From: Magnetococcales bacterium
Lineage (GTDB): Bacteria > Pseudomonadota > Magnetococcia > Magnetococcales > DC0425bin3
Length of the DNA stretch: 64,000 nucleotides
Reading direction: 5' to 3'
Assembly: GCA_015228935.1 (NCBI GenBank)
Contig: JADGCO010000005.1
Location: 13,128-77,127, forward strand
This document shows positions 690 to 60,917 of the stretch, in pieces (the first letter of the stretch is position 1; each line of letters starts with the position of its first letter). A program made the position numbers and the translations under genes. The notes beneath the pieces are model-generated. The model did no database searches. It was given only the letters and a program-made list of their open reading frames with translations, and was not told where the DNA came from.

Positions 690-956
690 ATGCAACGCCG
701 CGAGACATTTTTCCGGTTATTCTCTATGATCCGGCGTTTCAAACCGGTCGTGCTGGTGGCCTTTTTCCTGGTCACCAGCCCGGTCCCGGTCCTGGCTGAA
801 GATTATACCCAGATCCTGGCCGACGAACAGGCCGCCCGTCCGGTTGTCTCCCCTCTGGTCCAGGTTATGCCGACCCTGGCCTATTATCCGGTCTATGTCC
901 CGGTTTATGCCCCGGTGACGACCTGGTACCCTGTTTCCCCAATGGCACTTAAATAA
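690..956 (+). CDS. small hypothetical secreted/membrane protein (YPV-rich)
   Basis: 88-codon ORF beginning 21 nt after the previous stop. It has a signal-like hydrophobic N-terminus (VVLVAFFLVTSPVPVLA) followed by YYPVYVPVYAPV. An alternative start is M13 at nt 726. Confidence 0.4.
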   Translation: MQRRETFFRLFSMIRRFKPVVLVAFFLVTSPVPVLAEDYTQILADEQAARPVVSPLVQVMPTLAYYPVYVPVYAPVTTWYPVSPMALK

Positions 957-995
957 GAATTTTCTTGTAACTATTCAGCCATCCCATTCAAAACG

Positions 996-1144
996 GTAAC
1001 TGTTCATCATCCGGCAATAAACCGGGGTCCAGAAGGCTGGCGACCGGACAGGTCCAGGACGGAATCCTGGTAGGGTTCGGGGCGAAGCCCTCTGACCAGG
1101 GCTTTCGTATTCAGGCTTTTCTTGAAAGGGTGCTGAATAGTTAC
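996..1144 (-). mobile_element. MITE-like element copy (149 bp, short-hairpin subtype)
   Basis: Terminal inverted repeats (TIRs) are GTAACTGTTCA at 996 and TGAATAGTTAC ending at 1144. Internally it carries CCAGGAcggaaTCCTGG and GGGTTCGGGGCGAAGCC. It is near-identical in layout to 19658..19815. An extra solo end (GTAACTATTCAG) lies at 967..978. Confidence 0.8.
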
Positions 1145-1438
1145 CAATTTTTCGATTATTTAAGTGCCATTGGGATCAAGGCCTCTTTTTGTATCCCAAT
1201 CAAATCTGGTTTTGTTATTTGGCACCCGAAGGGGTCTCACGTTATTATGTTGAAATATGGACAAATTACTAAAGATTATCAACGCAGGCGCGTTTTCGCC
1301 TTTCCGGAGTTTTATAAATCTTTTCAGAATCTTGAAACTGTCTTTCATGCCAAACAGGGTGCCTGGACAATTATAAAAATTTTTGAGAGCATACGCCGCA
1401 TGCAAGGAATACCGCTGTCCCCATTCTGGAGAAACTCC

Positions 1439-2290
1439 ATGTCCCAATCCCTGACCATCGATGATATCTGGAAACTCTTTCAGGAAACCAACCGGCTGTT
1501 CCGGGAAGCAGAGATCAGGATGGAACACGATCTCCAAGAAACAAGACGTCTGCTCCAGGAGTCGGACAACAAGTTTCAAGCCAGACGAGAACACGATCTT
1601 CAGCAAGCCAGACAACTCTCCCAGGAGGCAGATGCCAGACTGGAACGCGAGATTCAGGAAGCCAGACGTCTATCCCAGGAATCGCACGCCAAGCTGGAAC
1701 ACGATTTTCAGGAAACCAGACGATTCTTGCAGGAGAGCAGTGCCGAAACTGATCGGAGATTCAGAGAAACTGACCGGAAATTCCAGGAAACTGACCGGAA
1801 ATTCCAGGAAACTGACCGGAAATTCCAGGAAACTGACAAAAAAATCAAGGAAGTGACAACGCTGGTCGGCAGCCTGGGTGGTCGTTGGGGAGAGTTTGTA
1901 GAAGGTTTGGTGGCACCGGCCTGCGAGACCATGTTTGCTGAACGGGGAATTCCGATCCATCGGGTTTACCACAACTTGAAAGCTGGTCTTCCCGGTGGAC
2001 GCAACATGCAAATCGATCTTCTGGTAACCAACACCGACTCCGTCGCGGTCATCGAAGTCAAAAGCCGACTGACGAACGATGACGTGCGCGATCATCTCGT
2101 GCGCGTGGCTGAATTCAAGGAGTTTTTCCCCATGTACGCACATATGCGGGTCATGGGAGCCATGGCCGGCATCGTGATCGATCAAGGTGTGGATCGTCAG
2201 GTTATGAATGCCGGGTTTTACCTCATCGTCCAATCGGGTGAAACAGTCCAATTGGCCAACGAACCCTCTTTCCAGGCACGGTTCTGGTAA
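1439..2290 (+). CDS. coiled-coil protein with C-terminal PD-(D/E)XK (restriction-endonuclease-like) domain, DUF3782-like
   Basis: The ORF runs 1130..2290, but its first ~15 nt lie inside the MITE. The ATG at 1439 (MSQSLTIDDIW) is the preferred start and 1400 is an alternative. The N-terminal half is heptad-like (HDLQETRRLLQES variants). The C-terminal half has IDLLV...VIEVKSRL, which fits D...(E)xK. Confidence 0.6.
   Translation: MSQSLTIDDIWKLFQETNRLFREAEIRMEHDLQETRRLLQESDNKFQARREHDLQQARQLSQEADARLEREIQEARRLSQESHAKLEHDFQETRRFLQESSAETDRRFRETDRKFQETDRKFQETDRKFQETDKKIKEVTTLVGSLGGRWGEFVEGLVAPACETMFAERGIPIHRVYHNLKAGLPGGRNMQIDLLVTNTDSVAVIEVKSRLTNDDVRDHLVRVAEFKEFFPMYAHMRVMGAMAGIVIDQGVDRQVMNAGFYLIVQSGETVQLANEPSFQARFW
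1766..1845 (+). repeat. perfect 21-bp in-frame tandem repeat (3 full units plus a partial unit)
   Basis: The unit gaaactgaccggaaattccag occurs at 1766, 1787 and 1808, with a diverged partial unit from 1829. It encodes ETDRKFQ x3 followed by ETDKKIK. Confidence 0.95.
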
Positions 2291-3016: not shown

Positions 3017-3179
3017 GAGGCAGTCCATTAACTCTCGGATAAAAAAAATTGGGAAAAAAGATTTTATTAGGGATCCGCCCCAAACCCCGCCAGGAGGAAG
3101 GGCACAGCCCTTCCTCCTGGACCTCCATCCCAGTTTTTCATTCGTTTTTATTGAAATTAACAGGTTATTAGACAGCCTC
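3017..3179 (+). mobile_element. MITE-like element copy (163 bp, long-hairpin subtype 2)
   Basis: TIRs are GAGGCAGTCCATTAAC at 3017 and GTTATTAGACAGCCTC ending at 3179. The core has (degenerate GGATCCGCCCC)-AAACCCCG-CCAGGAGGAAGGGCacaGCCCTTCCTCCTGG (3090..3120) and then CCCAGTTTTTCA. It is collinear with 39448..39614. Confidence 0.75.
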
Positions 3180-5900: not shown

Positions 5901-6868
5901 TACATTCCGAAAAAACTCCCGACATTTCCATCGTGATCCCGGTTTACAACGAAGAAGATGTCCTGCCGCACCTGTTTCGGCGTCTCTATCCGGTCCTGGA
6001 TGGCATGCACCGTCCCTATGAAGTGGTTTTCGTGGATGACGGCAGCCGCGATGCCTCGCCGATCCTGTTGCATCAGCAATTCAGGCAGTTGCCGGAAGTG
6101 ACGCGGGTGGTCATGCTGAAAAACAACTTCGGCCAACATGCCGCCATTCTGGCCGGCTTTGCCCACGCCCATGGCCGCTACGTCATCACCCTGGATGCCG
6201 ACCTGCAAAATCCCCCCGAAGAGATTCCCAAGCTCGTGAGCAAACTGGATGAAGGGTACGATTATGTCGGCACGATTCGGCGGCAACGTCGGGACCGGCT
6301 CTGGCGGCATGTGCTGTCCCGGCTCATGAACCGGCTGCGGGAGAGAGTCACCCGCATCCACATGACCGATCAGGGCTGCATGCTGCGCGGCTATGACCAG
6401 GCCATCATTCACATTTTGCGCGAATCGCACGAAGTGACCACCTACATTCCCGCCCTGGCCTTTCTCTATGCGGCCAAGCCAACCGAGGTGGTGGTGGAAC
6501 ATGAAGAACGCCAGTCGGGTCAGTCAAAATACTCCCTGTTCCGTTTGATTCAGCTCAACTTTGACCTGATGACCGGTTTTTCCACGGCACCGTTGCGCAT
6601 CTTCTCCCTGGTCGGCATCACCATCTCCTGCGCCTCTTTCCTGTTTGTCCTCTATCTCACCATCCGCCGGCTCATGATCGGACCCGAGGCCGAAGGGGTT
6701 TTCACCCTGTTTGCCATCGCCTATTTTCTTATTGGTATCATTTTGTTCGGTATCGGGCTGATGGGAGAGTACATGGGCCGGGTCTACCAGCAAACGCTGG
6801 CCCGCCCGCGTTTTCTGATCCGCACGGTGCTGGAAAAAAAATCTGCTGCGGAGTCGCCTGCACCATGA
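5897..6868 (+). CDS. arnC: undecaprenyl-phosphate 4-deoxy-4-formamido-L-arabinose transferase (GT2)
   Basis: Starts MIHSEKTPDISIVIPVYNEEDVLP, a GT2 signature, with DDGSRD and DADLQ motifs and two C-terminal transmembrane helices. The upstream part of ORF 5768.. is rejected because it overlaps arnT in another frame. Confidence 0.85.
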   Translation: MIHSEKTPDISIVIPVYNEEDVLPHLFRRLYPVLDGMHRPYEVVFVDDGSRDASPILLHQQFRQLPEVTRVVMLKNNFGQHAAILAGFAHAHGRYVITLDADLQNPPEEIPKLVSKLDEGYDYVGTIRRQRRDRLWRHVLSRLMNRLRERVTRIHMTDQGCMLRGYDQAIIHILRESHEVTTYIPALAFLYAAKPTEVVVEHEERQSGQSKYSLFRLIQLNFDLMTGFSTAPLRIFSLVGITISCASFLFVLYLTIRRLMIGPEAEGVFTLFAIAYFLIGIILFGIGLMGEYMGRVYQQTLARPRFLIRTVLEKKSAAESPAP

Positions 6869-7818
6869 CCGCCATGCCGAACAATGCCGTTGTTTTTGCC
6901 TACCACACGGTGGGTGTACGCGGCCTGGCAACCTTGCTCGCCCATGGGTTCAAAGTGCCGCTGGTGGTGACCCATCAGGACGATCCGGGCGAAAATCTCT
7001 GGTTTGACAGTGTGGCCGCCTGGGCCGACCGGGAAGGCATTCCGACCATCACCCCCGACTCGCCCAATCTGCCCGAAGTTCTGGACCGGGTGAACACCTG
7101 CCAACCAGATTTTTTCTTTTCCTTTTATTATCGCCACCTGTTGGGAGCCGAACTTCTCGCGGTTCCGACCCGGGGGGCCTACAACCTGCACGGCTCGCTG
7201 TTACCCAAATATCGCGGGCGCGTCCCCATCAACTGGGCCGTTCTGCACGGCGAACGGAAAACCGGAGCCTCCCTGCACCAAATGGTCCTCAAGGCCGATG
7301 CCGGGGACCTGGTCGATCAGGAAGCGGTCGCCATCCTGCCCAACGACACGGCCCACATGGTCTTTCAAAAGGTGGTTTGTGCCGGCGAGCGCGTTCTGCA
7401 CCGTGCCTTGCCGCGTCTGCTGGCCGGCAACGCACCGCATACCCCCATGAATCTTGCCCAGGGAAGCTGCTTCGGACGGCGGCGTCCCGAGGATGGCCGC
7501 ATCGATTGGCGTGCCCCGGCCTGGACGATTCACAATCTCATCCGGGCCGTGGCCCCACCTTATCCCGGGGCTTTTTTTGAGCATGGCCTCCACCGCATCC
7601 AGGTCCTGGCCAGCCACTATCGACAGGAACCAGCCCAAGGTCCAACATCAGAGTCACCACGCCTGTATTGGGAAGCCGGTCGTTGTCATGTCGATTGCGT
7701 CGATGGCGAGCGCCTGCTGCTGCCCCGACTGGCCATAGACGGACAACCGCTTGATGAACAGGAATTTTTGCGTATCCTTGGCTGTTCCGGCATATCTCTC
7801 GGAATGAACGGGCAATGA
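6865..7818 (+). CDS. arnA: UDP-4-amino-4-deoxy-L-arabinose formyltransferase (stand-alone ArnA N-terminal domain)
   Basis: Formyltransferase motifs are present: [36 protein letters not shown] overlaps link it to both neighbours. At 317 aa it matches the ArnA formyltransferase half only. Confidence 0.8.
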
Positions 7819-10228: not shown

Positions 10229-10850
10229 AGCCATTCTGGTCGGTGGCACGGCATCCGCCATATATGCCGGACATCGCCTTTCTATCGCCACGGATCATGT
10301 CTTGAGTGATCTGCGCCAACGTTTTGATACCGTTCTGGCCGATTTGGAATCGGTGGCCGGCTGGACAACTGCCCGGGTGCAACGTCCAGTACAAATTCTC
10401 GGCTCTCTGGATGGTATCGAAACCGGGGTGCGCCAATTGACCCGGGAAACCCCTTTGGAAACCGAACAAATGGCATGGGGAAACAGTTTCATTACGATTC
10501 CCATCCAGGTAGAAATACTGAGGATCAAAGGAGAATTGATTGTGAAGCGCAATACCACCCGGGACCATCTGGACTTTGCCGCCCTGGCCGATCACATGCA
10601 CGCGGACCAGGTTGTCGAGGCCTTGAAAAATTTTGACCAGCTCTATCCCCAGCCCAACGGCGCATCGTCCTTGCAACAACTGCAAATCCAGTTGGCCAAC
10701 CCCTTGCCATATGATCTGGAGGGAGTCTCCCTGAAGGAGTACAAAAATCTTTCCGCGTCCTGGCACGATTGGCACAGGGTTCGGGCTGTTTGCACCCGGT
10801 GTGCCATCCTGATTTTTGACCGGATCATGACCCAACAGGATATCGCCTGA
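10155..10850 (+). CDS. nucleotidyltransferase-fold protein, AbiEii/DUF1814-like (tentative)
   Basis: LVGGTASAIYAGHRLSIATDHV resembles the hGGTAL...HR.S.D.D NTase motif of AbiEii-type toxins, but the first Asp position is Ala. Length is ~231 aa from the ATG at 10155. Confidence 0.35.
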   Translation: MSNTTLPAWEKVLSAAAHLQCILPEAILVGGTASAIYAGHRLSIATDHVLSDLRQRFDTVLADLESVAGWTTARVQRPVQILGSLDGIETGVRQLTRETPLETEQMAWGNSFITIPIQVEILRIKGELIVKRNTTRDHLDFAALADHMHADQVVEALKNFDQLYPQPNGASSLQQLQIQLANPLPYDLEGVSLKEYKNLSASWHDWHRVRAVCTRCAILIFDRIMTQQDIA

Positions 10851-13085: not shown

Positions 13086-13243
13086 GCAACCATTCAGAAC
13101 CCTTTCAAAAAAAAGGATTTGATATGAAAGACTTTGTTGGGGCTTCGCCCCAAACCCCACCAGGGGGAAGGGCACAGCCCTTCCCCCTGGACCCCCATCC
13201 CAGTTTTTCAAACGTTTTTTCGAGAAAAATCTGAATCGTTAAC
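13086..13243 (+). mobile_element. MITE-like element copy (158 bp, long-hairpin subtype 1)
   Basis: Left end is GCAACCATTCAGAACCC and right end is CTGAATCGTTAAC. It carries GGGGCTTCGCCCC and the hairpin CCAGGGGGAAGGGCacaGCCCTTCCCCCTGG (13160..13190). It lies between the ATP-grasp gene and the asn-synthase-like gene. Confidence 0.8.

Positions 13244-15208: not shown

Positions 15209-15212
<4 letters not shown>
13266..15212 (+). CDS. asparagine synthase (glutamine-hydrolysing) family amidotransferase
   Basis: Starts MCGITGFF, a class II glutamine amidotransferase with Cys2 as nucleophile. The synthetase PP-loop is SGGMDSS. The upstream ORF extension from 13134 is read-through of the MITE and is rejected. 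Confidence 0.85.
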
Positions 15213-16815
<1,603 letters not shown>

Positions 16816-17026: not shown

Positions 17027-17275
17027 CATCCACTCCTCCGGCACCGCGAGGACCGGTCGATTTCAACACCGAACGACACCCACTCCGGCAGCACGGCAAG
17101 GACCGATTCACGCCTCAACGCAAGAGTGACACCCACTCCGGCGGCACGGCAAGGACCGATTCACGCTTCAGTACCAGAGTGACACCCACTCCGGCAGCAC
17201 GGCAAGGACCGATCCACGCTTCAACGCCAGAGTGACACCCACTCCAGTGGCGCTGCAAAGGCCGGTTTACGCCTC
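17027..17275. repeat. 53-bp tandem repeat, ~4.6 units, in the rplU-rpmA spacer
   Basis: Units start at 17075, 17128, 17181 and 17234 (gacacccactccggcagcacggcaaggaccgattcacgcctcaacgcaagagt and variants). A degenerate unit lies at ~17027. The last unit runs into the rplU stop codon. Confidence 0.9.
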
Positions 17276-17575
17276 GATACCGGTGATCTGCAATTCGGTC
17301 AAATTCTGCCGGTGCCCCTGTTTGCGCCGGTAATTTTTGCGCCGGCGACGTTTGAACACCAGAATTTTTTTGTCACGCAGATGCTGCAAAATGCGCGCCG
17401 TGACCCGGGTAGTGGCGGCGGCGTCTCCTGTTTTGACGCCGGCATCGCCGGTGACGAGCAGGACATCCGTCAGGGTCACACTTTCCCCTTTTTCACCCGG
17501 CAGCCGTTCCACGCGCAAAACGTCATTGACCGCCACCTTGTACTGCTTGCCGCCGGTTCGCACTACCGCAATCAT
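17267..17575 (-). CDS. rplU: 50S ribosomal protein L21
   Basis: Starts MIAVVRTGGKQYKVAVNDVLRVERL, 102 aa. Start chosen at 17575. Confidence 0.95.
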   Translation of the reverse strand: MIAVVRTGGKQYKVAVNDVLRVERLPGEKGESVTLTDVLLVTGDAGVKTGDAAATTRVTARILQHLRDKKILVFKRRRRKNYRRKQGHRQNLTELQITGIEA

Positions 17576-19538: not shown

Positions 19539-19615
19539 CGGGGTGTAGCTCAGCCTGGTAGAGCACTGCGTTCGGGACGCAGGGGCCGGAGGTTCGAATC
19601 CTCTCACCCCGACCA
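19539..19615 (+). tRNA. tRNA-Pro (anticodon CGG)
   Basis: Folded by hand as a 77-nt cloverleaf. Acceptor stem is CGGGGTG/CACCCCG, the anticodon loop is TTCGGGA, the T-loop is TTCGAAT, and CCA is encoded. Confidence 0.9.
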
Positions 19616-19622
19616 AGTCAAT

Positions 19623-19651
19623 CCAAAGAGTTACGGCCACTCACAAGGTGG
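19623..19651 (+). terminator. rho-independent terminator after tRNA-Pro
   Basis: Stem ACGGCCAC (19623-30) pairs with GTGGCCGT (19638-45) around a 7-nt loop, followed by TTTTTG. Confidence 0.75.
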
Positions 19652-19657
19652 CCGTTT

Positions 19658-19815
19658 TTGTTCCAGCGTAACTGTTCATCATCCGGCAACGAATCGGGGT
19701 CCAGGGGGCTGGCTCCCCTGGCAGGTTCAGGACGGAGTCCTGGTGGGGTTCGGGGCGAAGCCATGATAAAGGCTTTCATATTCAGGCTTTTCTTGAAAGG
19801 GTGCTGAATAGTTAC
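19658..19815 (-). mobile_element. MITE-like element copy (158 bp, short-hairpin subtype) with 8-bp target-site duplication
   Basis: TIRs are GTAACTGTTCA and TGAATAGTTAC. The element is flanked on both sides by GTTCCAGC (19650-57 and 19816-23). Confidence 0.9.
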
Positions 19816-20071
19816 GTTCCAGCAATCAAATAGCAACCACCAGGAAGGAATTCAGGGGAAACGTGCGGCAACATCGGTGCCCGTTGCCTGGGGTCTTCCC
19901 GGACAGGTCCTGCCATGTCTGGATTCAAGGCGCAAAAATACCGTAGGGTCTGGTCGGGTGCGGCGTCCGCCCACGCAGGGGCTTTCGGCCCCATACCGAA
20001 ACCCTGTTCCCGGATACCAACGGATGCGAGTGGATTCTTGCGGAGATGATGACAGCCAACTCTTTGAAAAC

Positions 20072-20148
20072 TGGCGCGCCCGGAAGGATTCGAACCTCCG
20101 ACCCCTTGGTTCGTAGCCAAGTACTCTATCCAGCTGAGCTACGGGCGC
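20072..20148 (-). tRNA. tRNA-Arg (anticodon ACG)
   Basis: The reverse complement folds as a 77-nt cloverleaf. Acceptor stem is GCGCCCG/CGGGCGC, the anticodon loop is CTACGAA, the T-loop is TTCGAAT, and CCA is encoded. Confidence 0.9.
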
Positions 20149-21854: not shown

Positions 21855-21930
21855 GAAAAAAAAGCATGGGGCTTTGCCCCATACCCAGCCAGGGCTTTGT
21901 CCTGGACCTGCCAGGGAGCCAGCCCCATGA
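21855..21930 (+). repeat. degenerate MITE core fragment
   Basis: GGGGCTTTGCCCC ... CCAGGgctttgtCCTGG ACCTGCCAGGGAGCCAGCCCC aligns with the reverse complement of 19658..19815. No intact TIRs were seen. Confidence 0.5.
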
Positions 21931-21940
21931 AATCTGTGTC

Positions 21941-24509: not shown

Positions 24510-24634
24510 GCGTCCATTTCGAGATAAGACCCAAATCCCGCCAGGAGGAAGGGCAGAGACGCTTCCTCCTGGACCTCCCTCCCAGTTTTTCATTCATTTT
24601 TTATGGGAAAAAACACGCATCTCAAAGTGGACGC
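24510..24634 (+). mobile_element. MITE-like element copy (125 bp, lacks the GGGGC mini-hairpin)
   Basis: TIRs are GCGTCCATTT at 24510 and AAGTGGACGC ending at 24634. The hairpin is CCAGGAGGAAG-(10 nt)-CTTCCTCCTGG at 24541..24572, followed by CCCAGTTTTTCA. Confidence 0.65.
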
Positions 24635-33996: not shown

Positions 33997-34152
33997 GTGA
34001 ATATTCATCCCCCCATTAAAAAACGTTTGAAAAACCGGGATGAAAGTCCAGGAGGAAGCGGCTCTGCCCTTCCTCCTGGCTGGGTTTGGAGTGGATCCCC
34101 AACCCATCTTTAACATGCTTTGGCCATTTTTGGCAGGTTTTGGCGGGGTTGC
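33997..34152 (-). mobile_element. MITE-like element copy (156 bp, inverted orientation)
   Basis: The plus strand begins GTGAATATTCATCCCCCC, which is the right TIR in reverse orientation, and ends GGTTGC. The hairpin is CCAGGAGGAAG-(10 nt)-CTTCCTCCTGG at 34048..34079. Confidence 0.7.
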
Positions 34153-39447: not shown

Positions 39448-39614
39448 GAGAGGCTGTCGATTAACCCTCGGATAAATATAATTGGAAAGAAAAATTTTAT
39501 TGGGGCTTCGCCCCAAACCCCGCCAGGAGAAAGGGCACAGCCCTTCCTCCTGGACCTCCATCCCAGTTTTTCATTCGTTTTATTTGAAATTAACAAGTTA
39601 TCAGACAGCCTCTG
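39448..39614 (+). mobile_element. MITE-like element copy (~167 bp, long-hairpin subtype 2)
   Basis: TIRs are GAGAGGCTGTCGATTAAC and GTTATCAGACAGCCTCTG. It carries GGGGCTTCGCCCC and the hairpin at 39523..39553, which has one uncompensated G-to-A change. It lies between convergent genes. CTGAG is present at both ends. Confidence 0.8.
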
Positions 39615-42001: not shown

Positions 42002-44488
42002 TCAACCCGTAACCCGCAAGGCCTGCCGCAACTCGCCGGCTCGGCGCAGGTAGGGATGGCCCTTCTTCAGGGAAGCAGGGAGACGATGCAAAAAGGCCAA
42101 TCCCGCATCCATGTTGTCAAACTCACCCACCAGGATCATCAGGAGATTTTTCCCTGTGTTTTCATACATGAAGAGTTGATTTCGATCCAGAATATTCTTG
42201 TGATTGGCCAGGAGTTCCTCCAATTTTCCGGCACGGGCCGCTTGCAGATCAATGGCCATGAGATGGACAAGGTAGCGACCGCGGCCACTTTTGGACAGCA
42301 AAGCCTGCGTGGCCGCCTTGCGTTGCGCAATATAAGGGCTGTCCTGTCCACTCCTGGTCAGGTTCAACGATTCTGTAACTGGGGGAAGGATGACAGATGC
42401 CACCTGGGAGGGAAACCGTTGTGTCTCGTCGGTGTTTGCGGGTTTTGTGGAGGACTTTCCTGGGACTCCACCTGCCAAGGCAGGGTCTGGCATGCCGTTG
42501 GCTGACATCAGGTTTGTGGCGGGTCTGGTCTCCGGGACCGGATTTGTTGCCACAGAAAACCGGGCGATGGGTTTTTCATCGGTTACCGGCATCGTCTCTT
42601 GTGTCAATCTGCCGTTTGATGTCGGTCTTGTGTCGCGTTTCGGGTCGGTGTCTGGTGTCAATCTGCTGTTCGAGACCGGTTTTGTGTCGCGTTTCGGATG
42701 GGTGTCTGGAGCCAATTTTCCGTTCGGGATCGATTTTGCTTCATCGGCCACTTCCTTCTGCGCCTGCATGACTTCGGTCAGGACTTCATCGATGGGTGCC
42801 TGGAAATCTGTTGTGGGGAGTGTCCTATTGACATCGACCTTGTTTTCCGGTGCCTTGGGCAAGGGATTGGCCGTTTGGACAGAGGCTCCCGAATCCTGGC
42901 CCCTGGTCAATCGATCCGGAAGCGAAAAAGTCATCTTTCCCGGACCATCGGGATTGCCGGGAAGCAGGCTGACCACAACAATCCCGCCCAGAACAACCAA
43001 GCCGGCAAAAAGCGCCTTTTTGGACTGGAAAGGGGATGGTTTGCCGGCGGATCCGGAACGGTTGCCACGTTTTGGCCTGTCTGTTTCCATTTCGGGGACG
43101 GAAATGATGATGGGCAGGCCGAGAAAATGGGATATGTCGCTGGGTTGCTTGAAGGTTTGATCGATCTGGTTGTAGATGGCCATGACCGACAAGGCAAAGA
43201 AAAAGCCGAACACCAGACCGATGGCGATCAGTTTGGGGCGGTTGGGTGCAACCGGTGCGGGTTGCACCTTGGCCTTGCGCAACACCACCACATGCGAGTC
43301 GAATCCCTTGGATCCCCCTTGCAGATTGGACTCATCGCGGCGTTTGTAGAAGGTTTCGAATGAATAGGCCAACAAACCCGACTCCCGGTTGATCCGCTCC
43401 GAGGTCAACAAAAATCTTTTCAGGACAATATTGCGTTCATCCAGTTGGGCAATCTTGCTTTTGAGACCTTCGATCTGGGTTTGCACTGCGGCCAGGTCGG
43501 ACTCCCGCTTGGCCACAACTGATTCCACCTCGCCATAGAGCAGCTCTCGCGATTTGGCCACCTGTTTGGCAATGCCCACGGCCACCGGGCTGTCGGGCAG
43601 ATAGGTTTTATCAATCTCGACCTGCCGCAACAGCAGGGTTTGCAGGTTTGTTGACAGATTGCGCACGGTTTCTGTTTGTATGTAGGAAAACAATTGCGTT
43701 TTTTCACCGCCCAGGCCTGCCCGGATGGCCTGGATTTCGTTGGCAATGATGATGGCCTGGGAATCGAGGCCCTGAACAAGCTGGGAATAATCCTTGCGCA
43801 ACAGCAGGTTGTTCTGGATTTCCTGATCCGGGTTGGGAGCCTTCAGATCCCCCACCATGTGCATCAGATCGTCCTGTTTTCCCTTCCAATCTGACAGGTA
43901 GCTGTTCACCTGATCGGCCAGAAAGACCTCTTTGGCACCTGGATTCAGGATGCGATGGCGAAACTGCCGATACTCCTCCATCAATGCTTCCAGAATATTT
44001 TTGGCCTCTTTGGGATCATGCCAGCGCAGGGCCACTTCGATGACATTGGATGTGGGCAGGATGGCCGTTTCCAGTGACGCACCGACTGTCTTGGCCATGC
44101 CTTCCACGGGATCTCCCCTGCCGGCACCGGGTTCTCCGGATTGTTCTTTCAGGGCAATCCTTTTCTCGGCAAGCAGCCGTTGCACGGTATTGCGCACCAC
44201 ATCGTCAGAGACCAGCATTTGCACTTCGGAGTAGAGATCCTCTTTGGTCACGGGTTCGACGCGCAGCATGGTGTCTTCCAGGGTCTGGGCATCCCGCTCG
44301 GACCGTTTGCCTTTGATCAAAAAGGCCCCGTCTGCCTGCCAGACCGGCGGACTCAACAAGGCGATGGCCACAAAGCCGGAGAGTATCACCCCGGAGATCC
44401 AGAATATTGCCCGCCGAAAGGCAAAAAAGGTGAAGATCAAATCTTTCAGTAGGTATCCACCGGTACTGGCGTCCTGGCGACTCTGCAT
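42002..44488 (-). CDS. polysaccharide co-polymerase (Wzz/GumC-type) with extra TM, Pro/Thr-rich repeat linker and C-terminal SPOR-like domain
   Basis: TM1 is followed by a Wzz-like region and long coiled coils. TM2 (LIAIGLVFGFFFALSVMAIY) is followed by the LGLPIIISVPE tail. A third TM (LFAGLVVLGGIVVVSLL) comes next, then an 18-aa repeat linker. The C-terminus reads YLVHLMAI....LFMYENTGKNLLMILVGEFDNMDAGLAFLHRLPASLKKGHPYLRRAGELRQAL, a DamX-type SPOR pattern. Confidence 0.7.
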   Translation of the reverse strand: MQSRQDASTGGYLLKDLIFTFFAFRRAIFWISGVILSGFVAIALLSPPVWQADGAFLIKGKRSERDAQTLEDTMLRVEPVTKEDLYSEVQMLVSDDVVRNTVQRLLAEKRIALKEQSGEPGAGRGDPVEGMAKTVGASLETAILPTSNVIEVALRWHDPKEAKNILEALMEEYRQFRHRILNPGAKEVFLADQVNSYLSDWKGKQDDLMHMVGDLKAPNPDQEIQNNLLLRKDYSQLVQGLDSQAIIIANEIQAIRAGLGGEKTQLFSYIQTETVRNLSTNLQTLLLRQVEIDKTYLPDSPVAVGIAKQVAKSRELLYGEVESVVAKRESDLAAVQTQIEGLKSKIAQLDERNIVLKRFLLTSERINRESGLLAYSFETFYKRRDESNLQGGSKGFDSHVVVLRKAKVQPAPVAPNRPKLIAIGLVFGFFFALSVMAIYNQIDQTFKQPSDISHFLGLPIIISVPEMETDRPKRGNRSGSAGKPSPFQSKKALFAGLVVLGGIVVVSLLPGNPDGPGKMTFSLPDRLTRGQDSGASVQTANPLPKAPENKVDVNRTLPTTDFQAPIDEVLTEVMQAQKEVADEAKSIPNGKLAPDTHPKRDTKPVSNSRLTPDTDPKRDTRPTSNGRLTQETMPVTDEKPIARFSVATNPVPETRPATNLMSANGMPDPALAGGVPGKSSTKPANTDETQRFPSQVASVILPPVTESLNLTRSGQDSPYIAQRKAATQALLSKSGRGRYLVHLMAIDLQAARAGKLEELLANHKNILDRNQLFMYENTGKNLLMILVGEFDNMDAGLAFLHRLPASLKKGHPYLRRAGELRQALRVTG
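42601..42730. repeat. 54-bp (18-codon) tandem repeat inside the co-polymerase linker, ~2.4 units
   Basis: Units start at 42601 and 42655. They encode (A/T)PDT(H/D)PKRDT(K/R)P(V/T)SN(S/G)RL on the minus strand. Confidence 0.85.
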
Positions 44489-46418: not shown

Positions 46419-46461
46419 GTAACTGTTTCAGGCTTTTCTTGAAAGGCTGCTGGATAGTTAC
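46419..46461 (-). mobile_element. 43-bp internally deleted MITE derivative (both TIRs joined)
   Basis: The sequence is GTAACTGTTtCAGGCTTTTCTTGAAAGGCTGCTGGATAGTTAC. This is the left TIR fused to the last ~34 bp of the 158-bp element. Confidence 0.75.
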
Positions 46462-53915: not shown

Positions 53916-56900
53916 TCACCCCGTTGCCAACTCCACACAAAAGCCTCAAAAAACGTCTGGTTTGGCAAATCGGTCTGCTTTTTGTTCTGGTTGTTGGCTG
54001 CTCGACGCTGCTGGTGGGTTGGTTGTTCAAGGTCCAGTTGGAAGAGGAGAGCCGCAAGTCCTTGCGGGAAATTGCCTATCGGGAGTTGCAGCGTCTGGAA
54101 GATCGGGTCTCCTACCTCATGGAAACCACTCAGGCCCTGACCAGCAACCATTTCATCGTCAATGGCCTGATCGATCCCGAAGGGAGGCGAACCTATCTGC
54201 CCAAACTGGTGGAGAATTTTGCCAAAAACCGGGATGTGACCGCCTTTGCCATGGTCGATTTTGACGGTCGTCCGGTTTTTGTCCAGGCCCAGGAGCCTCC
54301 GGATTACAACAGCTTTCCACAACTGCGTCAGGCCCTGGCCATGGGGCAATCCAGTCTGTTCATTTCATCCCGTCATAACCGCATGATGCTGGTCGTGCCC
54401 GTCGATTATTACAAAACCACGCTGGGTGCGGTGGTGGTTGAATTTGATTTTCACAATATTCTCCACCGCCTGTTGCAGGTCGAGAAAAACTTTTCCTTCG
54501 AGATTCTGGACGGGCGGGGCACGCTGTTCACTTTTCAGGAGATCAAACAGGAGCAGATGATTTCGGCCCAGGTAGCCAGCCATGGAGCGGCGATGCCCTG
54601 GTTGCACCGGTTGGGTTTGAAACTGCAATTCAGCGTCCCGAAATCGATTCATGAAGCCTCGATTCGCCACGCCCTGTTGCGTTTCGGTTCACTGGGGTTG
54701 TTGTTTGTGTTTCTGGCCGGGGTGATTGCGGTCCGCATTGGCAACAGCATGGCCAAGCCGATTTTGACCCTGTGCGAACGGGTGGCGAGTCAGGATGGCA
54801 TCTCCTGTTCGCCCATTGGTACCGGTGACGAGTTAGAAATCCTGGCGCAAACCTTTGACTGCCAGACCCAGGCCTTGCGTGCCCATCAGGAGGAGTTGGA
54901 GCAACGGGTGGCGGACCGAACCCGGGAGTTGGAACTGGCCCGCGAGGTGGCCGAGGTGGCCAATCGGGGGAAATCCGAATTTCTGGCCAACATGAGTCAC
55001 GAAATTCGCACCCCCATGAATGCCATTATCGGCTTGAGTCATCTCTGTCTGCAAACCCAATTGACCGCCCGCCAGAAGGATTATCTGCGCAAGGTGTACA
55101 ATTCGGCAACCTCTTTGTTGCGTATCATCAATGATATCCTCGATTTTTCCAAGATCGAGGCGGGGCGGCTGGACATGGAGGCCATCGATTTCACCCTGGA
55201 GGAGGTGCTGGGCAATCTGGCCACCATGTTGTCCCTGAAGGCACAGGAAAAAAATCTGGAATTTCTCATGGAAACGGCGGTCGATATTCCACCCAGCATG
55301 GTGGGAGATCCGTTGCGGCTGGGACAGATCCTGCTCAACCTGGCCAACAATGCCGTCAAGTTTACCGAGAAGGGTGAAGTGGCCGTCGTGACCGAACTTC
55401 TCGAAAAAGGGGAGGATTTTGTCCGCCTGCAATTCACCATCCGGGATACGGGCATTGGCATGACCCCGAAACAGCAGGCCGGTTTGTTCCAGGCTTTCAC
55501 CCAGGCGGATGCCTCCACAACCCGGAAATATGGCGGTACCGGACTGGGTTTGGCCATTGCCAAACGGTTGATTGACATGATGGACGGGACCATCCGGGTG
55601 GAGAGTGAACCCGGCCAGGGTACCCGCTGCATCTTCAATGTACGCCTCGGCATTTCCAACCAGCTCGTGGCCAAATCGTTGCTGCCCAGCCCCGATCTGC
55701 ACGGCTTGCGGGTCCTGGTGGTGGACGATAATGAAAGCGCCCGCAATGTATTCACCGAATATTTGACCTCCTTCACGTTCAAGGTGGCAGCGGCCAGGAA
55801 TGCCGGCGAGGCCATGATCGCTGTCCAGGAAGCGGCAGCGGCTGAAAATTTATTCGACCTGATGATTATCGATTACATGATGCCGGATGTGGATGGCATC
55901 ACCCTGGTGGCCAATATGCGCCGGGAGCTGACCCTGAGCCGGTTTCCCGTTGTCATCATGGCCTCGGCCTATGGGGAAGAGAGTCTGGTCAGGCGGGCTG
56001 TCCAGGAGGCCCGGGTGGACGGTTTTCTGGTCAAACCCGTCAATCAGAGTCTGCTGTTCGAATCGATCATGGAAGCCTTTGGGCATGCCGGGAGCGTTGG
56101 TCGGAAAAGTGGTTCGGAACCGGGCCGTCACCGGGATTTCATGGCTGTTCTTTCCGGGGCCAGAATTCTCCTGGTCGAGGACAACGAAATCAACCAGCAG
56201 GTGGCGCGGGAGTTGTTGGAACAGGCCAATATCACCGTGCTGCTGGCCGAGAATGGTCAGGATGCCGTGGAACGGGTATTCCGTGAACCTTTGGACGGCG
56301 TTTTGATGGATGTGCAGATGCCGGTCATGGATGGTCTGACTGCCACCCGGGAAATTCGCAAGGAGGCCCGTTTTGCCGATTTGCCCATTCTGGCCATGAC
56401 GGCCAATGCCATGTCCGGCGACCGGGAACTCTGCCTGGCGGCAGGCATGCAGGGTCATATTGCCAAACCTGTCGATCCCGACGACCTGTTTGCCACCCTG
56501 GCCCGCTGGATCAAGCCCGCCACACCCAAACCCCTGCCGACACCTTCGGGATCGGAACCGGAGGTTCCGGGTGACAGAGCGGATGAAAAACCGCCATCGT
56601 CGAATGGTGAGAAACCGCCCTCGCCGGATGACGAAAAACCCTTCCTGCCACCAATTGCCGGGGTGGATACCGCAGCCGGATTGCAGCGCATGTCCGGAAG
56701 TGTCAAAAGTTATCTCGCGCTGTTGGCCAAATTTCGTCTCAATCAGGGAAGTGCCGAAAGTGCCATTCGGGAAGCTCTCCTGGCCAACGATTGGGCCACA
56801 GCAGAGCGTCTGGCCCATACCCTGAAAGGAGTGGCCCTGACCATCGGAGCCAACACGCTTGGGGAAAAATCCCGCCTTTTGGAGTCTGCCATCCAAAAAC

Positions 56901-57277
56901 AGACCAATCCTGAACAGTGCGCCACTCTGCTCCAGGAGGCAGGGACCGAGTTGACCCGTCTGTTCCAGGTTCTGGACCAGGTCTTGCCAGGGGAAAAAGC
57001 CGCTGATCCGGTGCAGTCTGTCGGGGAAGAGTCCACCGCATCCCTGGCCAGCCGGGATGCCTTGTTGAAAAAAATTGCCGGCCAGTTGGTCATCTACGAT
57101 GCTGCCGTGGAAGAGACCATCCAGATTCTGGGTGGGTTGCCCTTGTCCCGGGAAACCCTGGACCGGGTCAGGATTCTGAAACAACAGGTTGCCCAATATG
57201 ATTATGATGGGGCCATGGCCACAATCCAACAATGTGCCAAAGACCTGCATGTTGATTTGGAGACCGCAAATGCCTGA
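53912..57277 (+). CDS. membrane hybrid sensor histidine kinase (TM - periplasmic domain - TM/HAMP - HisKA - HATPase - REC - REC - Hpt)
   Basis: Two transmembrane segments bracket a ~230-aa periplasmic region. The H-box is [16 protein letters not shown] and the ATP-binding region has [10 protein letters not shown]. The receivers have [11 protein letters not shown] and [11 protein letters not shown]. The Hpt has [12 protein letters not shown]. Confidence 0.9.
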
Positions 57278-60200
57278 CAGTATGACGAAATCCTCCATCC
57301 TCATCGTGGATGATGCCCCGGAAAACCTGGATGTACTCAAGGACGCCCTGATGAATGAATACATGGTGCGTCCGGCACTGAACGGTCCCCTGGCCTTGCG
57401 GTTGGCAGCCATGGATCCCCAGCCCGACCTGATTCTTCTTGATGTCATGATGCCGGACATGGATGGCTATGAGGTGTGCCGCCAGTTGAAGGCCGATTTT
57501 CGCACCCGGGATATTCCGGTTATTTTCGTCACGGCCCGCGCCGAAATCAGGGATGAATTGGAAGGGTTGCAACTGGGTGCCGTCGATTACATCACCAAAC
57601 CTGTCCGTCCCCATATCGTCAGGGCCAGGGTGATGACCCATCTGGCCCTGCGCCATTTCAACCGGGAGATGGAAGAAAAAAATCGTCGCCTCTACGAAAT
57701 CAATGAGCGTCTCAGCAGCAGTCTGGAACAACTCTCTGCCTCCGAAGAGCGTTTTCGGAGTCTGGTCCAGACCATACCGGATATTGTCTACAAGATTGAC
57801 GCCGAAGGTCGCTTCACCTTTTTGAACAAATCCATCGAACGGTTGGGGTATCACCAATCGGATTTGATCGGCAAACATTTTTCCGAAATCATCCACAGTG
57901 CAGACATCCAGGATGCCAGTCTGCAAAAGGTGATTGAAAGGATTGGCAAGGGGGCAATCAATCCCGACCAGAAGGTGTTCGATGAACGACGCACCGGTGT
58001 GCGCATGACGGTTGGCCTGGAAATTCGTCTGAAGACCAAGACCGGGAAAACCGACCATGTGTATGAGCTGCGCAATATCGATACACAGAGCGTCAATGTC
58101 GAGGTCAACAGTACCGGCCTGTACGGGGAAATCGGCAACGATACCTCCTACCGTTCCCGGCAATATGTTGGAACCGTGGGGGTCATTCGCGATATTACGG
58201 ATCGACAAAAAATTCAAAACGCCTTCATGGAGGAGAGAAAACTGCTCCGGCAATTGATCGATGCCGTCCCCTATCCAATATTTTTTCTGGAAAATCATGG
58301 CGAATTGATCTTTTCCAATGAGGCTTTCCAGGCCTTTGTTGCCAGGCCGGGTGACAAGCTGGAAGGAAAGTCCTTTCACGAATTTTGTTGTAACAATGAC
58401 GCTTCCAAAATGGATTCCGTGCTGGCAACCCTGCTCGAGGATGCAGCCGTGCATCGGGTGCGTCAGGAGTTGGAAATAGACTCCGGTGCCGGGACGAAAC
58501 ATGTCATGGATGTCATCCTGCTCAAGTTTCAGAGGACCAACCAGCCGCTGCCGGCCATCATTGGCATCATGGTCGATGTGACGGAACAGCGGGCATCCAT
58601 GGTCAAACTGATCCAGGCCAAAAAAGAAGCCGAAATCATGGCCGCAAATGCCGCCCAGGCCAGTCGGGCCAAGGGGGAGTTTCTGGCCAATATGAGTCAC
58701 GAAATCCGGACCCCGCTCAATGCCGTGACCGGGTTGACCCACCTGTGTCTGCAAACCGAGTTGACCGGACAGCAGCGGGATTATTTGAACAAGGTGTCCC
58801 TCAGTGCCCATGCCCTGCTGCAACTCATCAACGATATCCTGGACTTTTCCAAGATCGAGGCCGGTAAGCTCACCATGGAACATGTCGGTTTTTCCATGGA
58901 GGAACTTCTGGGTGGCATCGTGGCCATACTGGGAGTCAAAAGCCAGGAAAAGGGTTTGGAATTGCTCCTGGATACCAAAAGTACCGTGCCCCGGCATCTG
59001 CGGGGGGATTCCCTGCGCCTGGGACAGGTTTTGATCAATCTGCTGGGCAATGCCATCAAGTTTACGGAAAAGGGGGAAGTCACCCTGACCATCGATATGG
59101 TGGAAGAGAGAAAAGAGGGAAAAGAGAGAGAAGAGAATGTCCTGCTCCAGTTTGTTGTCTGCGATACCGGCATTGGCATGACGGAGGAGCAGGTGAACAA
59201 CCTGTTTCAGGAGTTTTACCAGGGAGATTCCACCATGACCCGCAAATATGGCGGGACGGGTCTGGGTCTGGCAATCAGCAAACGTCTGGTGGAGATGATG
59301 GGAGGAGGCCTGAGTGTTGAAAGTGAACCCGGACAAGGGAGTACGTTCACCTTTACGGCCCGCTTCGACTGGGGGGTCGAGCCGTTGCCGGTGAATTCCC
59401 GAGCCGTGGAACATATTCGTGGTTTGCGGGTGCTGGTTGTGGATGACAACGAGCATGCCCGACAAATCCTGCTCAAACTGTTGGACGTCTTGGGATGCCA
59501 CTCCGTAGGTGTCGAAAGCGGCGAGCTGGCCCTGACAGCCCTGCTGGACGCCGACGCGGATCAAAACTCTTTTGAACTGGTTCTGATGGATTGGAAAATG
59601 CCGGGCATGGATGGTCTGGAAACAATCCGGCAGATCAAAGCGTTGCCATCCCTGCGCAAAATGCCATTGGTAATCATGGTCACCGCATATGGTGAAGGGG
59701 AGTTGTTGACCAGCGCGGGAAGCAAACTTCCGTTGGATGGTTTTTTGATGAAGCCGGTCAATCTCAATTCCTTGCAGAATGCCATTCTGTCTGCCTGTGA
59801 GCGATTGCAGCCCGGATCATGGAGGAGGGATCTCCGGAGCAATCGGAGACTTTTGGCCGGAGTCAGACTGCTCCTGGTCGAGGACAACGAAATCAATCAG
59901 CAGGTGGCACGGGAACTTCTGGAGAAGGTGGGAATCCTGGTGATCACGGCCAACCACGGTCAGGAGGCCATTGACATGCTGAAGCAGGAATCCGTGGATG
60001 GTGTCTTGATGGATCTGCAAATGCCGGTCATGGATGGTTTGACGGCGACCCGGCATATCCGCCTAAACCAGAGTGCCCAAACCTTGCCCATCATTGCCAT
60101 GACAGCCAACGCCATGGCCGGCGACCGGGAAAAGTGTCTGGCCGCCGGCATGAATGATCATATTGCCAAACCGATGGTGCCGGATGAAATGTATGCCACG

Positions 60201-60911
60201 TTGGCCAAATGGCTGCGCGGCAAACCAGGCATTTCTGCCCCGACATCGGCTGCTTCTCCTTCCAGACAAGGGGAGGAAAATGTGCTGCCTTTGCCATCCA
60301 TTCCGGGCGTCGATATGGTCAAAGGAGTACACAATGTGGGCGGTAATGTTCTCCTCTTTCGTGACATTCTGGTCAAGTTCGCCCACAATCAAGGTGGAGC
60401 CGTTCTGAAGATGGATCGGCACTTGGCAACACGTGATTTCAAGGCGTTGGAGCATGCTGCCCATGCCTTGCGGGGGGTCTCGGCCACCATCGGCGCAACA
60501 AAGGTGACAATTCTGGCAGAAAAAATTGAAAAATTGGCCGGGAAACCGGAAAAATACACGGAGATTCCGGAATTGTTGGGTACCATGGCCGGTGAGCTGA
60601 CCCGCATTGTTTCAGCCATTACCATGAATCTGATGGGAGCAGCTCCAGCCATGCCGGCAGATGTGCGAACGGATGTGGTGACAACACCGGAAAATTTGGC
60701 TCCTTTGTTGCGGAAAAGTGTCGAACTCCTGTCGGGCTTTGATCCTTCCGTGGAGCAGGTGGTGGCCGAAATGGCTGCCCTGACCCCTTCCGGTCGGCGT
60801 CGCGACAGGGTGGATGCCATCCGGTTGGCCATGCACCATTACGATTTTGAAAAGTGCCTGACCCTTATTCGCGATTGGGCACAAGAAGAAGGCATCCCTT
60901 TGGAGGGGTAA
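57270..60911 (+). CDS. cytoplasmic hybrid histidine kinase (REC - PAS x2-3 - HisKA - HATPase - REC - REC - Hpt)
   Basis: N-terminal REC has [11 protein letters not shown]...VDYITKP. The H-box is [16 protein letters not shown] and the ATP-binding region has [10 protein letters not shown]. The receivers have [11 protein letters not shown] and [11 protein letters not shown]. The Hpt has [12 protein letters not shown]. Start chosen at the ATG at 57270, which overlaps the upstream stop by 8 nt. Confidence 0.9.
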
Positions 60912-60917
60912 TCTCAC

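What the first reader, a model, noticed from the sequence alone, without database searches (positions are those of the whole stretch)
19650..19823. One element copy carries a clean 8-bp target-site duplication (GTTCCAGC)
GTTCCAGC at 19650-19657 directly abuts the left TIR (GTAACTGTTCA starting at 19658). The same octamer at 19816-19823 directly abuts the right TIR (TGAATAGTTAC ending at 19815).

This is the classic footprint of transposase-mediated insertion. It argues the family is, or recently was, mobilised in trans as a MITE rather than being a simple REP. The insertion lies just after the tRNA-Pro terminator. Copy 39448-39614 shows CTGAG at both ends, but that could equally be a TIR extension.
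Basis: seen in the sequence. Interest (0 to 1): 0.55.

Follow-up and report, generated by a model that had tools for sequence, protein, structure and literature searches.

The report
Miniature IS66-type transposon beside tRNA-Pro
A 148-bp non-coding mobile element, whose ends match those of one known transposon family (IS66, ISBst12 group), inserted just downstream of a tRNA gene in a magnetotactic bacterium and left the usual 8-bp duplication; it is a clean but ordinary example of a known kind of element.

Summary
The left coordinates are off by 10. GTTCCAGC lies at 19660-19667 and 19816-19823 and directly abuts a 148-bp element (19668-19815) with 17-nt terminal inverted repeats (TIRs, 14/17 matching).

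The target-site duplication (TSD) is not chance and not part of the element:
- Other family copies have different flanks.
- Two copies in a related Magnetococcales genome have perfect 8-bp duplications, CCCTGCTG and TCGGAAAC.
- Two window copies score 7/8 and one 6/8. Background rates are 5e-5 for 8/8 and 8e-4 for 7/8.
- One related insertion splits an IS1-family transposase gene. A homologous uninterrupted copy in another genome carries CCCTGCTG once, which is a true empty site.
- Relatives lack the element after their tRNA-Pro terminator.

The termini, GTAACTATTCAGCACCC, match single-ORF IS66-family (ISBst12-group) insertion sequences fetched here. Five of the seven complete ones have perfect 8-bp duplications and one more scores 7/8. 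One autonomous element in a viral contig matches all 17 nt.

So this is a miniature inverted-repeat element (MITE) of ISBst12 type in the assembly named Magnetococcus sp. DMHC-1. No partner transposase was found in the roughly 150 kb of Magnetococcales DNA I could reach.

It is a new member of a known kind, of modest interest. One oddity: its GC-rich hairpin core also sits inside a second repeat family with unrelated TIRs.

The parts
19539..19615 (+). tRNA-Pro (anticodon CGG), upstream neighbour of the insertion
   Evidence: ARAGORN; Rfam RF00005
19633..19659 (+). Intrinsic-terminator-like hairpin ACGGCCAC-tcaca-AGGTGGCCGT plus TTTTT. It is conserved in relatives.
   Evidence: alignment with L004/L005/L007
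19660..19667 (.). Left copy of the 8-bp target-site duplication, GTTCCAGC
   Evidence: The relative L005 reads GTTTTAGT at the homologous position with no element.
19668..19815 (+). The 148-bp non-autonomous element (MITE, subfamily A). No gene is called in it and it has no transposase homology.
19668..19684 (+). Left TIR, GTAACTGTTCATCATCC
19690..19764 (-). GC-rich multi-hairpin core. Read on the minus strand it is GGCTTCGCCCCGAACCCC, then CCAGGAC-tcc-GTCCTGa, then CCAGGGG-agccagc-CCCCTGG. It is shared with other repeat families.
19799..19815 (+). Right TIR, GGGTGCTGAATAGTTAC (reverse complement GTAACTATTCAGCACCC)
   Evidence: It is identical over 17 nt to the left end of an autonomous IS66-family IS, L035.
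19816..19823 (.). Right copy of the 8-bp target-site duplication, GTTCCAGC
996..1144 (+). Second subfamily-A copy (87% identical, same TIR pair). No TSD: flanks are TCAAAACG / CAATTTTT. It sits in the loop of a 17-bp palindrome, and an extra solo terminus lies at 967-979.
46419..46461 (+). 43-bp internally deleted mini-copy (both ends only). Flanks AAAACCGT / GATACCGT match 6/8.
15209..15366 (-). Subfamily-B copy, in opposite orientation. Ends are GTAACCATTCAGAACCC / GTAACTATTCAGACCCC. Flanks GAATCTTC / GAATCGTC match 7/8.
13086..13242 (-). Subfamily-B copy with mutated termini (GCAAC... / ...GTTAA). Flanks CGTTTTTT / CGTTTATT match 7/8 with this boundary and 5/8 if the end is placed 1 nt further.
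33997..34100 (+). Decayed, truncated subfamily-B copy. Its left end reads GTGAATATTCA and it has no right end.

Best explanation
[quoted passage not shown] It is a 148-bp non-coding element bounded by the terminal inverted repeats typical of the single-ORF ISBst12 group of the IS66 family. A DDE transposase of that group, encoded elsewhere, bound the two GTAAC... ends and inserted the element just 3' of the tRNA-Pro terminator. Repair of the staggered cuts duplicated the 8-bp target GTTCCAGC.

Shown: the anatomy; the 8-bp duplication at several independent insertions; an empty site for one of them; unoccupied orthologous tRNA-Pro sites; and near-identity of the termini to autonomous ISBst12-type elements that themselves make 8-bp duplications.

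Inferred: that the mobilising enzyme was an ISBst12-type transposase acting in trans, and that the insertion is fairly recent. No such transposase gene was seen in the Magnetococcales DNA available. Present-day activity is unknown.
For: (1) Perfect 8/8 flanks directly abut both TIRs. The background rate is 5e-5.

(2) The family is dispersed. The window holds two full and one mini subfamily-A copies, and two full and one decayed subfamily-B copies. The related MAG GCA_015231175.1 has many more.

(3) 8-bp duplications recur with unrelated sequences. L021 2249-2395 has CCCTGCTG on both sides. L023 10437-10583 has TCGGAAAC on both sides. Window copies score 7/8, 7/8 and 6/8. The probability of 3 or more perfect cases among 8 by chance is about 7e-12.

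(4) The three perfect-TSD copies are the most similar to each other, at 92-95%, as expected of the youngest subfamily.

(5) Empty site. Removing the L021 element plus one octamer restores a 374-codon IS1-family transposase ORF that aligns without gaps to intact homologues. The homologous element in GCA_002753495.1 (L033) carries CCCTGCTG once, and the two BLAST blocks overlap by exactly 8 bp. L032 also aligns without a gap across the junction.

(6) Relatives with 75-89% identical IspB keep the tRNA-Pro and its terminator but have no element there. L005 reads GTTTTAGT where the window has GTTCCAGC.

(7) Termini. Geobacillus pHTA426 IS: PF03050 transposase E=1.9e-64, ends GTATCTATTCAGCCC / GTAACTATTCAGCCC, TSD GACGAGTT. 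Oceanisphaera, Deinococcus, Bacillus thuringiensis, Niveispirillum and Acaryochloris elements have GTAACT..TCAGC-type ends; three have perfect 8-bp TSDs and B. thuringiensis 7/8. ISDge4 has GTAACTGCTCAGCA and an 8-bp direct repeat (PMC12898284). The viral-contig IS L035 645-2440 has a PF03050 transposase (E=2.5e-39), a left end identical to the MITE TIR over 17 nt, a right end like subfamily B, and TSD CTATGGCA.

(8) The element holds no gene call, no Rfam family and no IS66 transposase homology.
Against: No ISBst12/IS66 transposase gene was found by tblastn in the window plus all Magnetococcales loci held (about 150 kb in all; loci fetched later were checked for element copies and termini only). 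So the partner in this lineage is unproven.

No same-species empty site exists for the window's own copy. Downstream of the octamer the relatives are not syntenic.

Two copies (996-1144 and L023 16030-16173) lack any TSD.

Only the 13-17 terminal nt resemble the autonomous ISs. The interior is a GC-rich repeat also found outside this family. The element is therefore not a simple internal-deletion derivative of a known IS.

The window copy's two TIRs match only 14/17.
Confidence: 0.83

Rival explanations
1. It is a MITE, but it is moved by a transposase of another family that also makes 8-9-bp duplications (IS1595, IS1, ISL3, IS256), not by an IS66/ISBst12-type enzyme.
For: IS1-family and IS1595-family transposase genes are present in the related genome. 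No IS66-family transposase was seen in the Magnetococcales DNA held.
Against: The ends of those two elements do not resemble the MITE's. They are GGTGGCCTGACA... and CGCTCATGTTTCAAATTGTGTGA. Both elements are targets that the MITE disrupted. The MITE's 13-17 terminal nt are identical to those of PF03050-encoding ISs.
Confidence: 0.08
2. It is an extinct fossil. It was inserted by transposition long ago, and the partner transposase has since been lost from the lineage, so the family is no longer mobile.
For: No partner was found. The window copy's TIRs match only 14/17. Copies within DMHC-1 are only 87% alike. Several copies are decayed or truncated.
Against: Perfect TSDs survive at three sites. 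Copies in two different species-level genomes are 92-95% alike, while IspB proteins are only 89% identical. The 14/17 TIR pair is shared by both DMHC-1 copies, so it is a lineage variant and not post-insertion decay. MAGs routinely lack multi-copy ISs. This rival concerns present activity only, and overlaps the main explanation rather than excluding it.
Confidence: 0.3
3. It is a REP-like or other palindromic repeat, and the flanking octamer is a chance repeat or part of the repeat unit.
For: The interior is GC-rich, forms several hairpins (z = -3.2 as DNA) and also occurs without TIRs.
Against: Flanks differ between copies yet are duplicated at 8 bp in at least 3 independent cases. An empty site with a single octamer exists. 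The chance rate is 5e-5. The termini match a transposase family.
Confidence: 0.02
4. It is the remnant of a tRNA-targeted integrative element, and the direct repeats are attL/attR made by a site-specific recombinase.
For: It lies next to a tRNA gene, a classic integration hotspot.
Against: The repeats lie beyond the terminator and do not overlap the tRNA 3' end. The element is 148 bp with no integrase. Other copies sit in transposase genes and ordinary intergenic DNA with different duplicated octamers.
Confidence: 0.01

Closest known systems
ISBst12 group of the IS66 family (single-ORF IS66-like elements such as ISDge4, the pHTA426 element and the IS at L035 645-2440)
   Same: The termini begin 5'-GTAAC and match over 13-17 nt (GTAACTATTCAGC[ACCC]). 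The target duplication is 8 bp and shows no obvious target consensus. In several of these ISs the transposase stop codon lies in or beside the right TIR (TGC TGA in D. wulumuqiensis). The MITE's right end keeps the same TGCTGA.
   Different: It is 148 bp rather than 1.45-1.8 kb and encodes no PF03050 transposase. Apart from the TIRs it shows no similarity to the ISs compared. Its interior is a host-lineage GC-rich hairpin repeat.
Bacterial MITEs in general (for example the Cardinium IS982-type MITE, PMC9769881, or MITEPsy1/2, PMC3189936)
   Same: It is short and non-coding, has TIRs like those of an IS family, has a fixed-length TSD, occurs in many dispersed copies and is mostly intergenic or inside other mobile elements.
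   Different: I found no description of a MITE with ISBst12/IS66-type ends, or of any MITE in Magnetococcales, in the library searched. The internal module is shared with a second TIR family.
REP/BIME-type palindromic repeats
   Same: It is GC-rich, hairpin-forming, intergenic and often found next to terminators.
   Different: REPs have no TIR-plus-TSD architecture. This element has both, and an empty site exists for one copy.

Membership tests
MITE (non-autonomous TIR element) | Short (under about 500 bp) and without a transposase gene | tested here: met
   148 bp. No gene is called between IspB and the next gene. tblastn with an IS66-family transposase finds nothing. No Rfam family matches.
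MITE (non-autonomous TIR element) | Terminal inverted repeats | tested here: met
   14/17 in the window copy. 17/17 in L021 (18 nt counting one flanking base pair).
MITE (non-autonomous TIR element) | Target-site duplication of constant length with variable sequence | tested here: met
   8 bp: 8/8 in three copies (window, L021, L023), 7/8 in two, 6/8 in one, none in two old copies.
MITE (non-autonomous TIR element) | Multiple dispersed copies | tested here: met
   Six copies or fragments with GTAAC-type ends in the 64-kb window. At least 10 in about 42 kb of GCA_015231175.1.
MITE (non-autonomous TIR element) | Occupied and empty alleles of the same site | tested here: met
   L021 (filled) against L033 (a single CCCTGCTG). 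For the window copy the evidence is cross-species only: relatives lack the element after tRNA-Pro.
MITE (non-autonomous TIR element) | An autonomous partner with the same TIRs in the same genome | not testable with these tools
   None was found in the Magnetococcales DNA held. The source genome was not in the genome or metagenome scans. Only 9 kb beyond the window could be fetched.
IS66 family, ISBst12 group | Ends start 5'-GTAA, with TIRs of about 14-30 bp | tested here: met
   GTAACTATTCAGCACCC. Literature: PMC11946415 and PMC12898284. Verified on 7 complete autonomous elements fetched here, plus one partial.
IS66 family, ISBst12 group | 8-bp target duplication | tested here: met
   for the MITE. 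for the autonomous elements.
IS66 family, ISBst12 group | Encodes a DDE_Tnp_IS66 (PF03050) transposase | tested here: not met
   There is no coding capacity. It is therefore filed as a non-autonomous derivative or mimic of this group, not as an IS66-family IS.
REP / BIME | Short imperfect palindrome units without TIR-bounded ends or TSD | tested here: not met
   TIRs plus 8-bp TSDs and an empty site.
IS1 or IS1595-derived MITE | TIRs matching the resident IS1-family or IS1595-family elements | tested here: not met
   Those elements end in GGTGGCCTGACA and CGCTCATGTTTCAAATTGTGTGA.

The most novel reading that the evidence does not exclude
The GC-rich multi-hairpin core (GGGGC-TTC-GCCCC, then GAACCCC, then CCAGG...CCTGG hairpins) may be a self-standing module with its own function or its own way of spreading. 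It would then have been picked up independently by two unrelated transposition systems in this lineage: ISBst12-type ends (GTAAC..., 8-bp TSD) and GAGGCTGTC-type ends (possible 3-bp TNA duplication). It also persists alone. On this reading the MITEs are vehicles for a shared structured cargo, rather than plain deletion derivatives.
Probability: 0.15. Interest if true: 0.55.

Novelty: new member of a known kind. Interest (0 to 1): 0.3.

Why it matters
It gives a well-documented case of a MITE that uses ISBst12/IS66-type ends. The evidence includes TSDs, an empty site and the TIR source family. It comes from an uncultured magnetotactic coccus, and I found no report of MITEs for that IS group or that clade.

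In practice it flags a repeat family that fragments Magnetococcales MAG assemblies, produces spurious ORFs and chimeric 'transposase' annotations (P0121), and inactivates other ISs. It also offers a marker for strain typing.

The ISBst12 group has only recently been shown to transpose (PMC12898284). A 148-bp substrate with defined ends would make a convenient minimal donor for mechanistic work.

None of this changes current understanding of transposition.

Tried and rejected
- **Genome-collection scan** with a right-end pattern: only 2 chance hits. The source MAG is not a species representative there.
- **Metagenome scan**: 13 chance hits and no element.
- **Window extension.** The right side gave 9 kb with no copies. 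Two left-side look-ups failed because the ORF starts did not match the recorded gene calls.
- **Pairs of GTAAC-like ends about 2.5 kb apart** in the window (996/3462 and 43898/46461) looked like candidate full-length ISs. They hold ordinary ORFs and have no TSD.
- **The IS1-family and IS1595-family elements next to related copies** were considered as parents. Their TIRs do not match.
- **Plasmid search with the GC-rich core**: no match.
- **Viral-contig hits.** Three of the five hits to the 17-mer (L036-L038) have no transposase or partner end and are probably chance.
- **A 'TSD' for copy 996-1144** could not be recovered under any boundary. The AATTTT(T)C similarity on both sides is out of register.

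Full report
**Observation.**
- The window reads ...GGTGGCCGTTTTT GTTCCAGC | GTAACTGTTCATCATCC ... GGGTGCTGAATAGTTAC | GTTCCAGC AATCAAATAGC....
- The left octamer is at 19660-19667, the element at 19668-19815 (148 bp) and the right octamer at 19816-19823.
Everything else is as described.
- The duplication is exactly 8 bp, because the bases outside it differ.
- The two 17-nt ends match at 14 of 17 positions.
- The site is 52 nt after tRNA-Pro(CGG), immediately after a terminator-like hairpin and T-run at 19633-19659. It lies in the spacer before a convergent tRNA-Arg at 20072-20148.
- For octamers at comparable spacings in this window, identity is 8/8 at a rate of 5e-5, 7/8 at 7.6e-4 and 6/8 at 5.9e-3.

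**Source.** The flanking octaprenyl-diphosphate synthase is found on one record only, GCA_039908575.1 contig JAMOAV010000003.1. NCBI names it MAG Magnetococcus sp. DMHC-1. No gene is called in the element and no Rfam family reaches threshold there.

**The family in the window.** Repeat finding, BLAST and an nhmmer model give these copies:

| Copy | Type | TIRs / state | Flanks | Match |
|---|---|---|---|---|
| 19668-19815 | A, full length | 14/17 | GTTCCAGC / GTTCCAGC | 8/8 |
| 996-1144 | A, full length, 87% identical | same TIR pair | TCAAAACG / CAATTTTT | 1/8 |
| 46419-46461 | A, 43-bp mini, ends only | – | AAAACCGT / GATACCGT | 6/8 |
| 15209-15366 | B, opposite orientation | intact | GAATCTTC / GAATCGTC | 7/8 |
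| 13086-13242 | B, opposite orientation | mutated termini | CGTTTTTT / CGTTTATT | 7/8 |
| 33997-34100 | B, decayed | truncated | – | – |

- Subfamily B is 55-60% identical to subfamily A along the whole length.
- The octamer is different at every copy, so it is not part of the element.

**Related genomes.** Two large scans with right-end patterns returned only chance matches. I therefore went through proteins.
- The closest relatives (IspB 89%, 85% and 75% identical) keep the Maf-IspB-tRNA-Pro arrangement and the terminator. None has the element after the terminator. L005 reads GGCCGTTTTTGTTTTAGTACCC, that is GTTTTAGT where the window has GTTCCAGC.
- So the left octamer is ancestral host sequence and the site is unoccupied in relatives. 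Downstream synteny is lost, so this is not a clean empty allele.
- The 9-kb locus of GCA_015231175.1 alone holds about seven copies or fragments.

**Further insertions with perfect duplications.** A protein search with a concatenated six-frame translation of the element found two ORFs that read into copies.
- In L021, an 'IS1 family transposase' (P0121) runs into an element at 2249-2395. This copy has perfect 17-nt TIRs (GTAACTATTCAGCACCC) and CCCTGCTG on both sides.
- In L023, an element at 10437-10583 is flanked by TCGGAAAC on both sides. It lies in the 5' end of an IS1595-family element.
- With the window copy, these are the three most similar copies, at 92-95% identity.
- By the window's background rate, three or more perfect cases among eight scorable copies has a probability of about 7e-12.

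**Empty site.**
- Deleting the L021 element and one octamer gives a continuous 374-codon ORF.
- Its junction (...AYEASLL|KVYGI...) aligns without gaps to uninterrupted IS1-family transposases P0123, P0124, P0127 and P0128. The DNA of P0123 also aligns across the junction.
- In GCA_002753495.1 the homologous element (81-86% nucleotide identity) is uninterrupted.
- The two BLAST blocks from L021 overlap by exactly 8 bp on it (7306-7313). The alignment shows ...GCTTCCCTGCTGAAGGT... with CCCTGCTG once.
- This is the classical filled-versus-empty comparison, for a sister copy of the element in the finding.

**Which transposase family.**
- IS66-family ends are reported to start GTAAGCG and give 8-bp repeats (PMC11946415).
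- ISDge4, of the single-ORF ISBst12 group, has GTGACTACTCAGCA / GTAACTGCTCAGCA ends and an 8-bp repeat (PMC12898284).

I checked this on real elements:

| Element | Ends | TSD |
|---|---|---|
| Geobacillus pHTA426, L024 14107-15741 (PF03050 E=1.9e-64) | GTATCTATTCAGCCC / GTAACTATTCAGCCC | GACGAGTT, 8/8 |
| Oceanisphaera | GTAACTATTCAGCT at both ends | none |
| D. wulumuqiensis | GTAACTGCTCAGCA | 8/8 |
| B. thuringiensis | GTAACTACTCAGCT | 7/8 |
| Niveispirillum | GTAATTGCTCA... | 8/8 |
| Acaryochloris | GTTACTGCCCAGGC | 8/8 |
| Viral contig, L035 645-2440 (1796 bp; 423-aa ORF, PF03050 E=2.5e-39) | see below | CTATGGCA on both sides |

- The L035 element was found by scanning viral contigs for the MITE's 17-mer.
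- Its left end is identical to the MITE TIR over all 17 nt. Its right end (GGGGTTCTGAATAGTTAC) is nearly identical to the subfamily-B end.
- Beyond the TIRs there is no similarity between the MITE and these ISs.
- The resident IS1-family and IS1595-family elements have quite different ends.
- No IS66-family transposase is detectable in the window or in any Magnetococcales locus checked.

**Mechanism.** The best-supported reading is cut-and-paste or copy-and-paste insertion by an ISBst12-type DDE transposase supplied in trans. It recognises the GTAAC... ends, and staggered target cleavage 8 bp apart is filled in to give GTTCCAGC twice. The structural steps are shown. The identity and present existence of the enzyme in this lineage are inferred.

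**What is unusual.**
- The interior is not IS-derived. It is a GC-rich set of hairpins (DNA fold z = -3.2).
- The same core occurs alone at 24518-24605, 21868-21935, L005 1385-1469 and L004 3073-3148.
- It also occurs inside a second repeat family, at 3017-3178 and 39450-39612. That family has unrelated TIRs, GAGGC(T/A)GTC...TAAC.
- The flanks TGA/TGA and TAA/CAA would fit a 3-bp TNA duplication. From memory, that is typical of the IS1031 group of the IS5 family. I did not test this.
- The long stem of the core shows two compensatory changes among seven copies. That is too few to argue for selection.

**Verdict.** The finding is correct and its interpretation holds: this is a genuine MITE insertion with an 8-bp TSD. 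It is a new member (ISBst12-type, in Magnetococcales) of a well-known kind. I found no prior description in the library searched, but nothing about it is mechanistically surprising.

Noticed in passing
window 3017-3178 and 39450-39612: A second MITE-like family, about 162 bp. Its TIRs are unrelated (GAGGCAGTCCATTAAC / GAGGCTGTCGATTAAC). Its flanks are TAA/CAA and TGA/TGA, a possible 3-bp TNA duplication that resembles IS5/IS1031 from memory. It carries the same GC-rich core as the GTAAC-type MITE.
   Followed up: partly
window 24518-24605, 21868-21935; L005 1385-1469; L004 3073-3148, 1938-2011: The GC-rich hairpin core (GGGGC-TTC-GCCCC, GAACCCC, CCAGG...CCTGG) occurs with no recognisable TIRs, often beside T-runs. 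The stems vary in sequence but stay paired, with two compensatory pairs among 7 aligned copies. No match was found in the plasmid collection.
   Followed up: partly
window 940-1172: Copy 996-1144 sits in the loop of a perfect 17-bp palindrome, CAATGGCACTTAAATAA (940-956 / 1156-1172), which is unique in the window. An extra solo terminus, GTAACTATTCAGC, lies at 967-979. No TSD is recoverable, which suggests a nested or rearranged insertion.
   Followed up: partly
L004 6450-7756 (GCA_015231175.1): Two element left ends in inverted orientation bracket 1.3 kb that holds a prepilin-like gene (6722-7600). CTTTTT directly abuts both ends. This may be a composite mobilisation, but the repeat is 6 bp rather than 8 and the context is T-rich.
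   Followed up: no
L021 1619-2404 (protein P0121): A public 'IS1 family transposase' annotation is a chimera. It consists of 210 residues of transposase followed by 51 residues translated from the MITE. The rest of the gene is called separately as a hypothetical protein (2491-2898).
   Followed up: yes
L028, L029 and window 19799-19815: In ISBst12-type ISs the transposase stop codon lies inside the right TIR (TGC TGA in D. wulumuqiensis; the TAA of GTAAC in Acaryochloris). The MITE's right end keeps ...AAAGGGTGCTGA in a frame that is open across the whole element (...FRLFLKGC*). It may therefore derive from the 3' end of the parent gene.
   Followed up: partly
window 1745-1849; 17075-17281; 42594-42701: Tandem repeats: a 21-bp unit (GAAACTGACCGGAAATTCCAG) about 5 times; a 53-bp unit about 4 times, between the L21 and L27 ribosomal protein genes, where a 99-aa ORF is called; and a 54-bp unit twice.
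   Followed up: no
window 54958-57653 vs 58658-61304: Two paralogous blocks of hybrid histidine-kinase and response-regulator genes, 71-81% identical and 3.7 kb apart. Many receiver-domain paralogues occur across the window.
   Followed up: no
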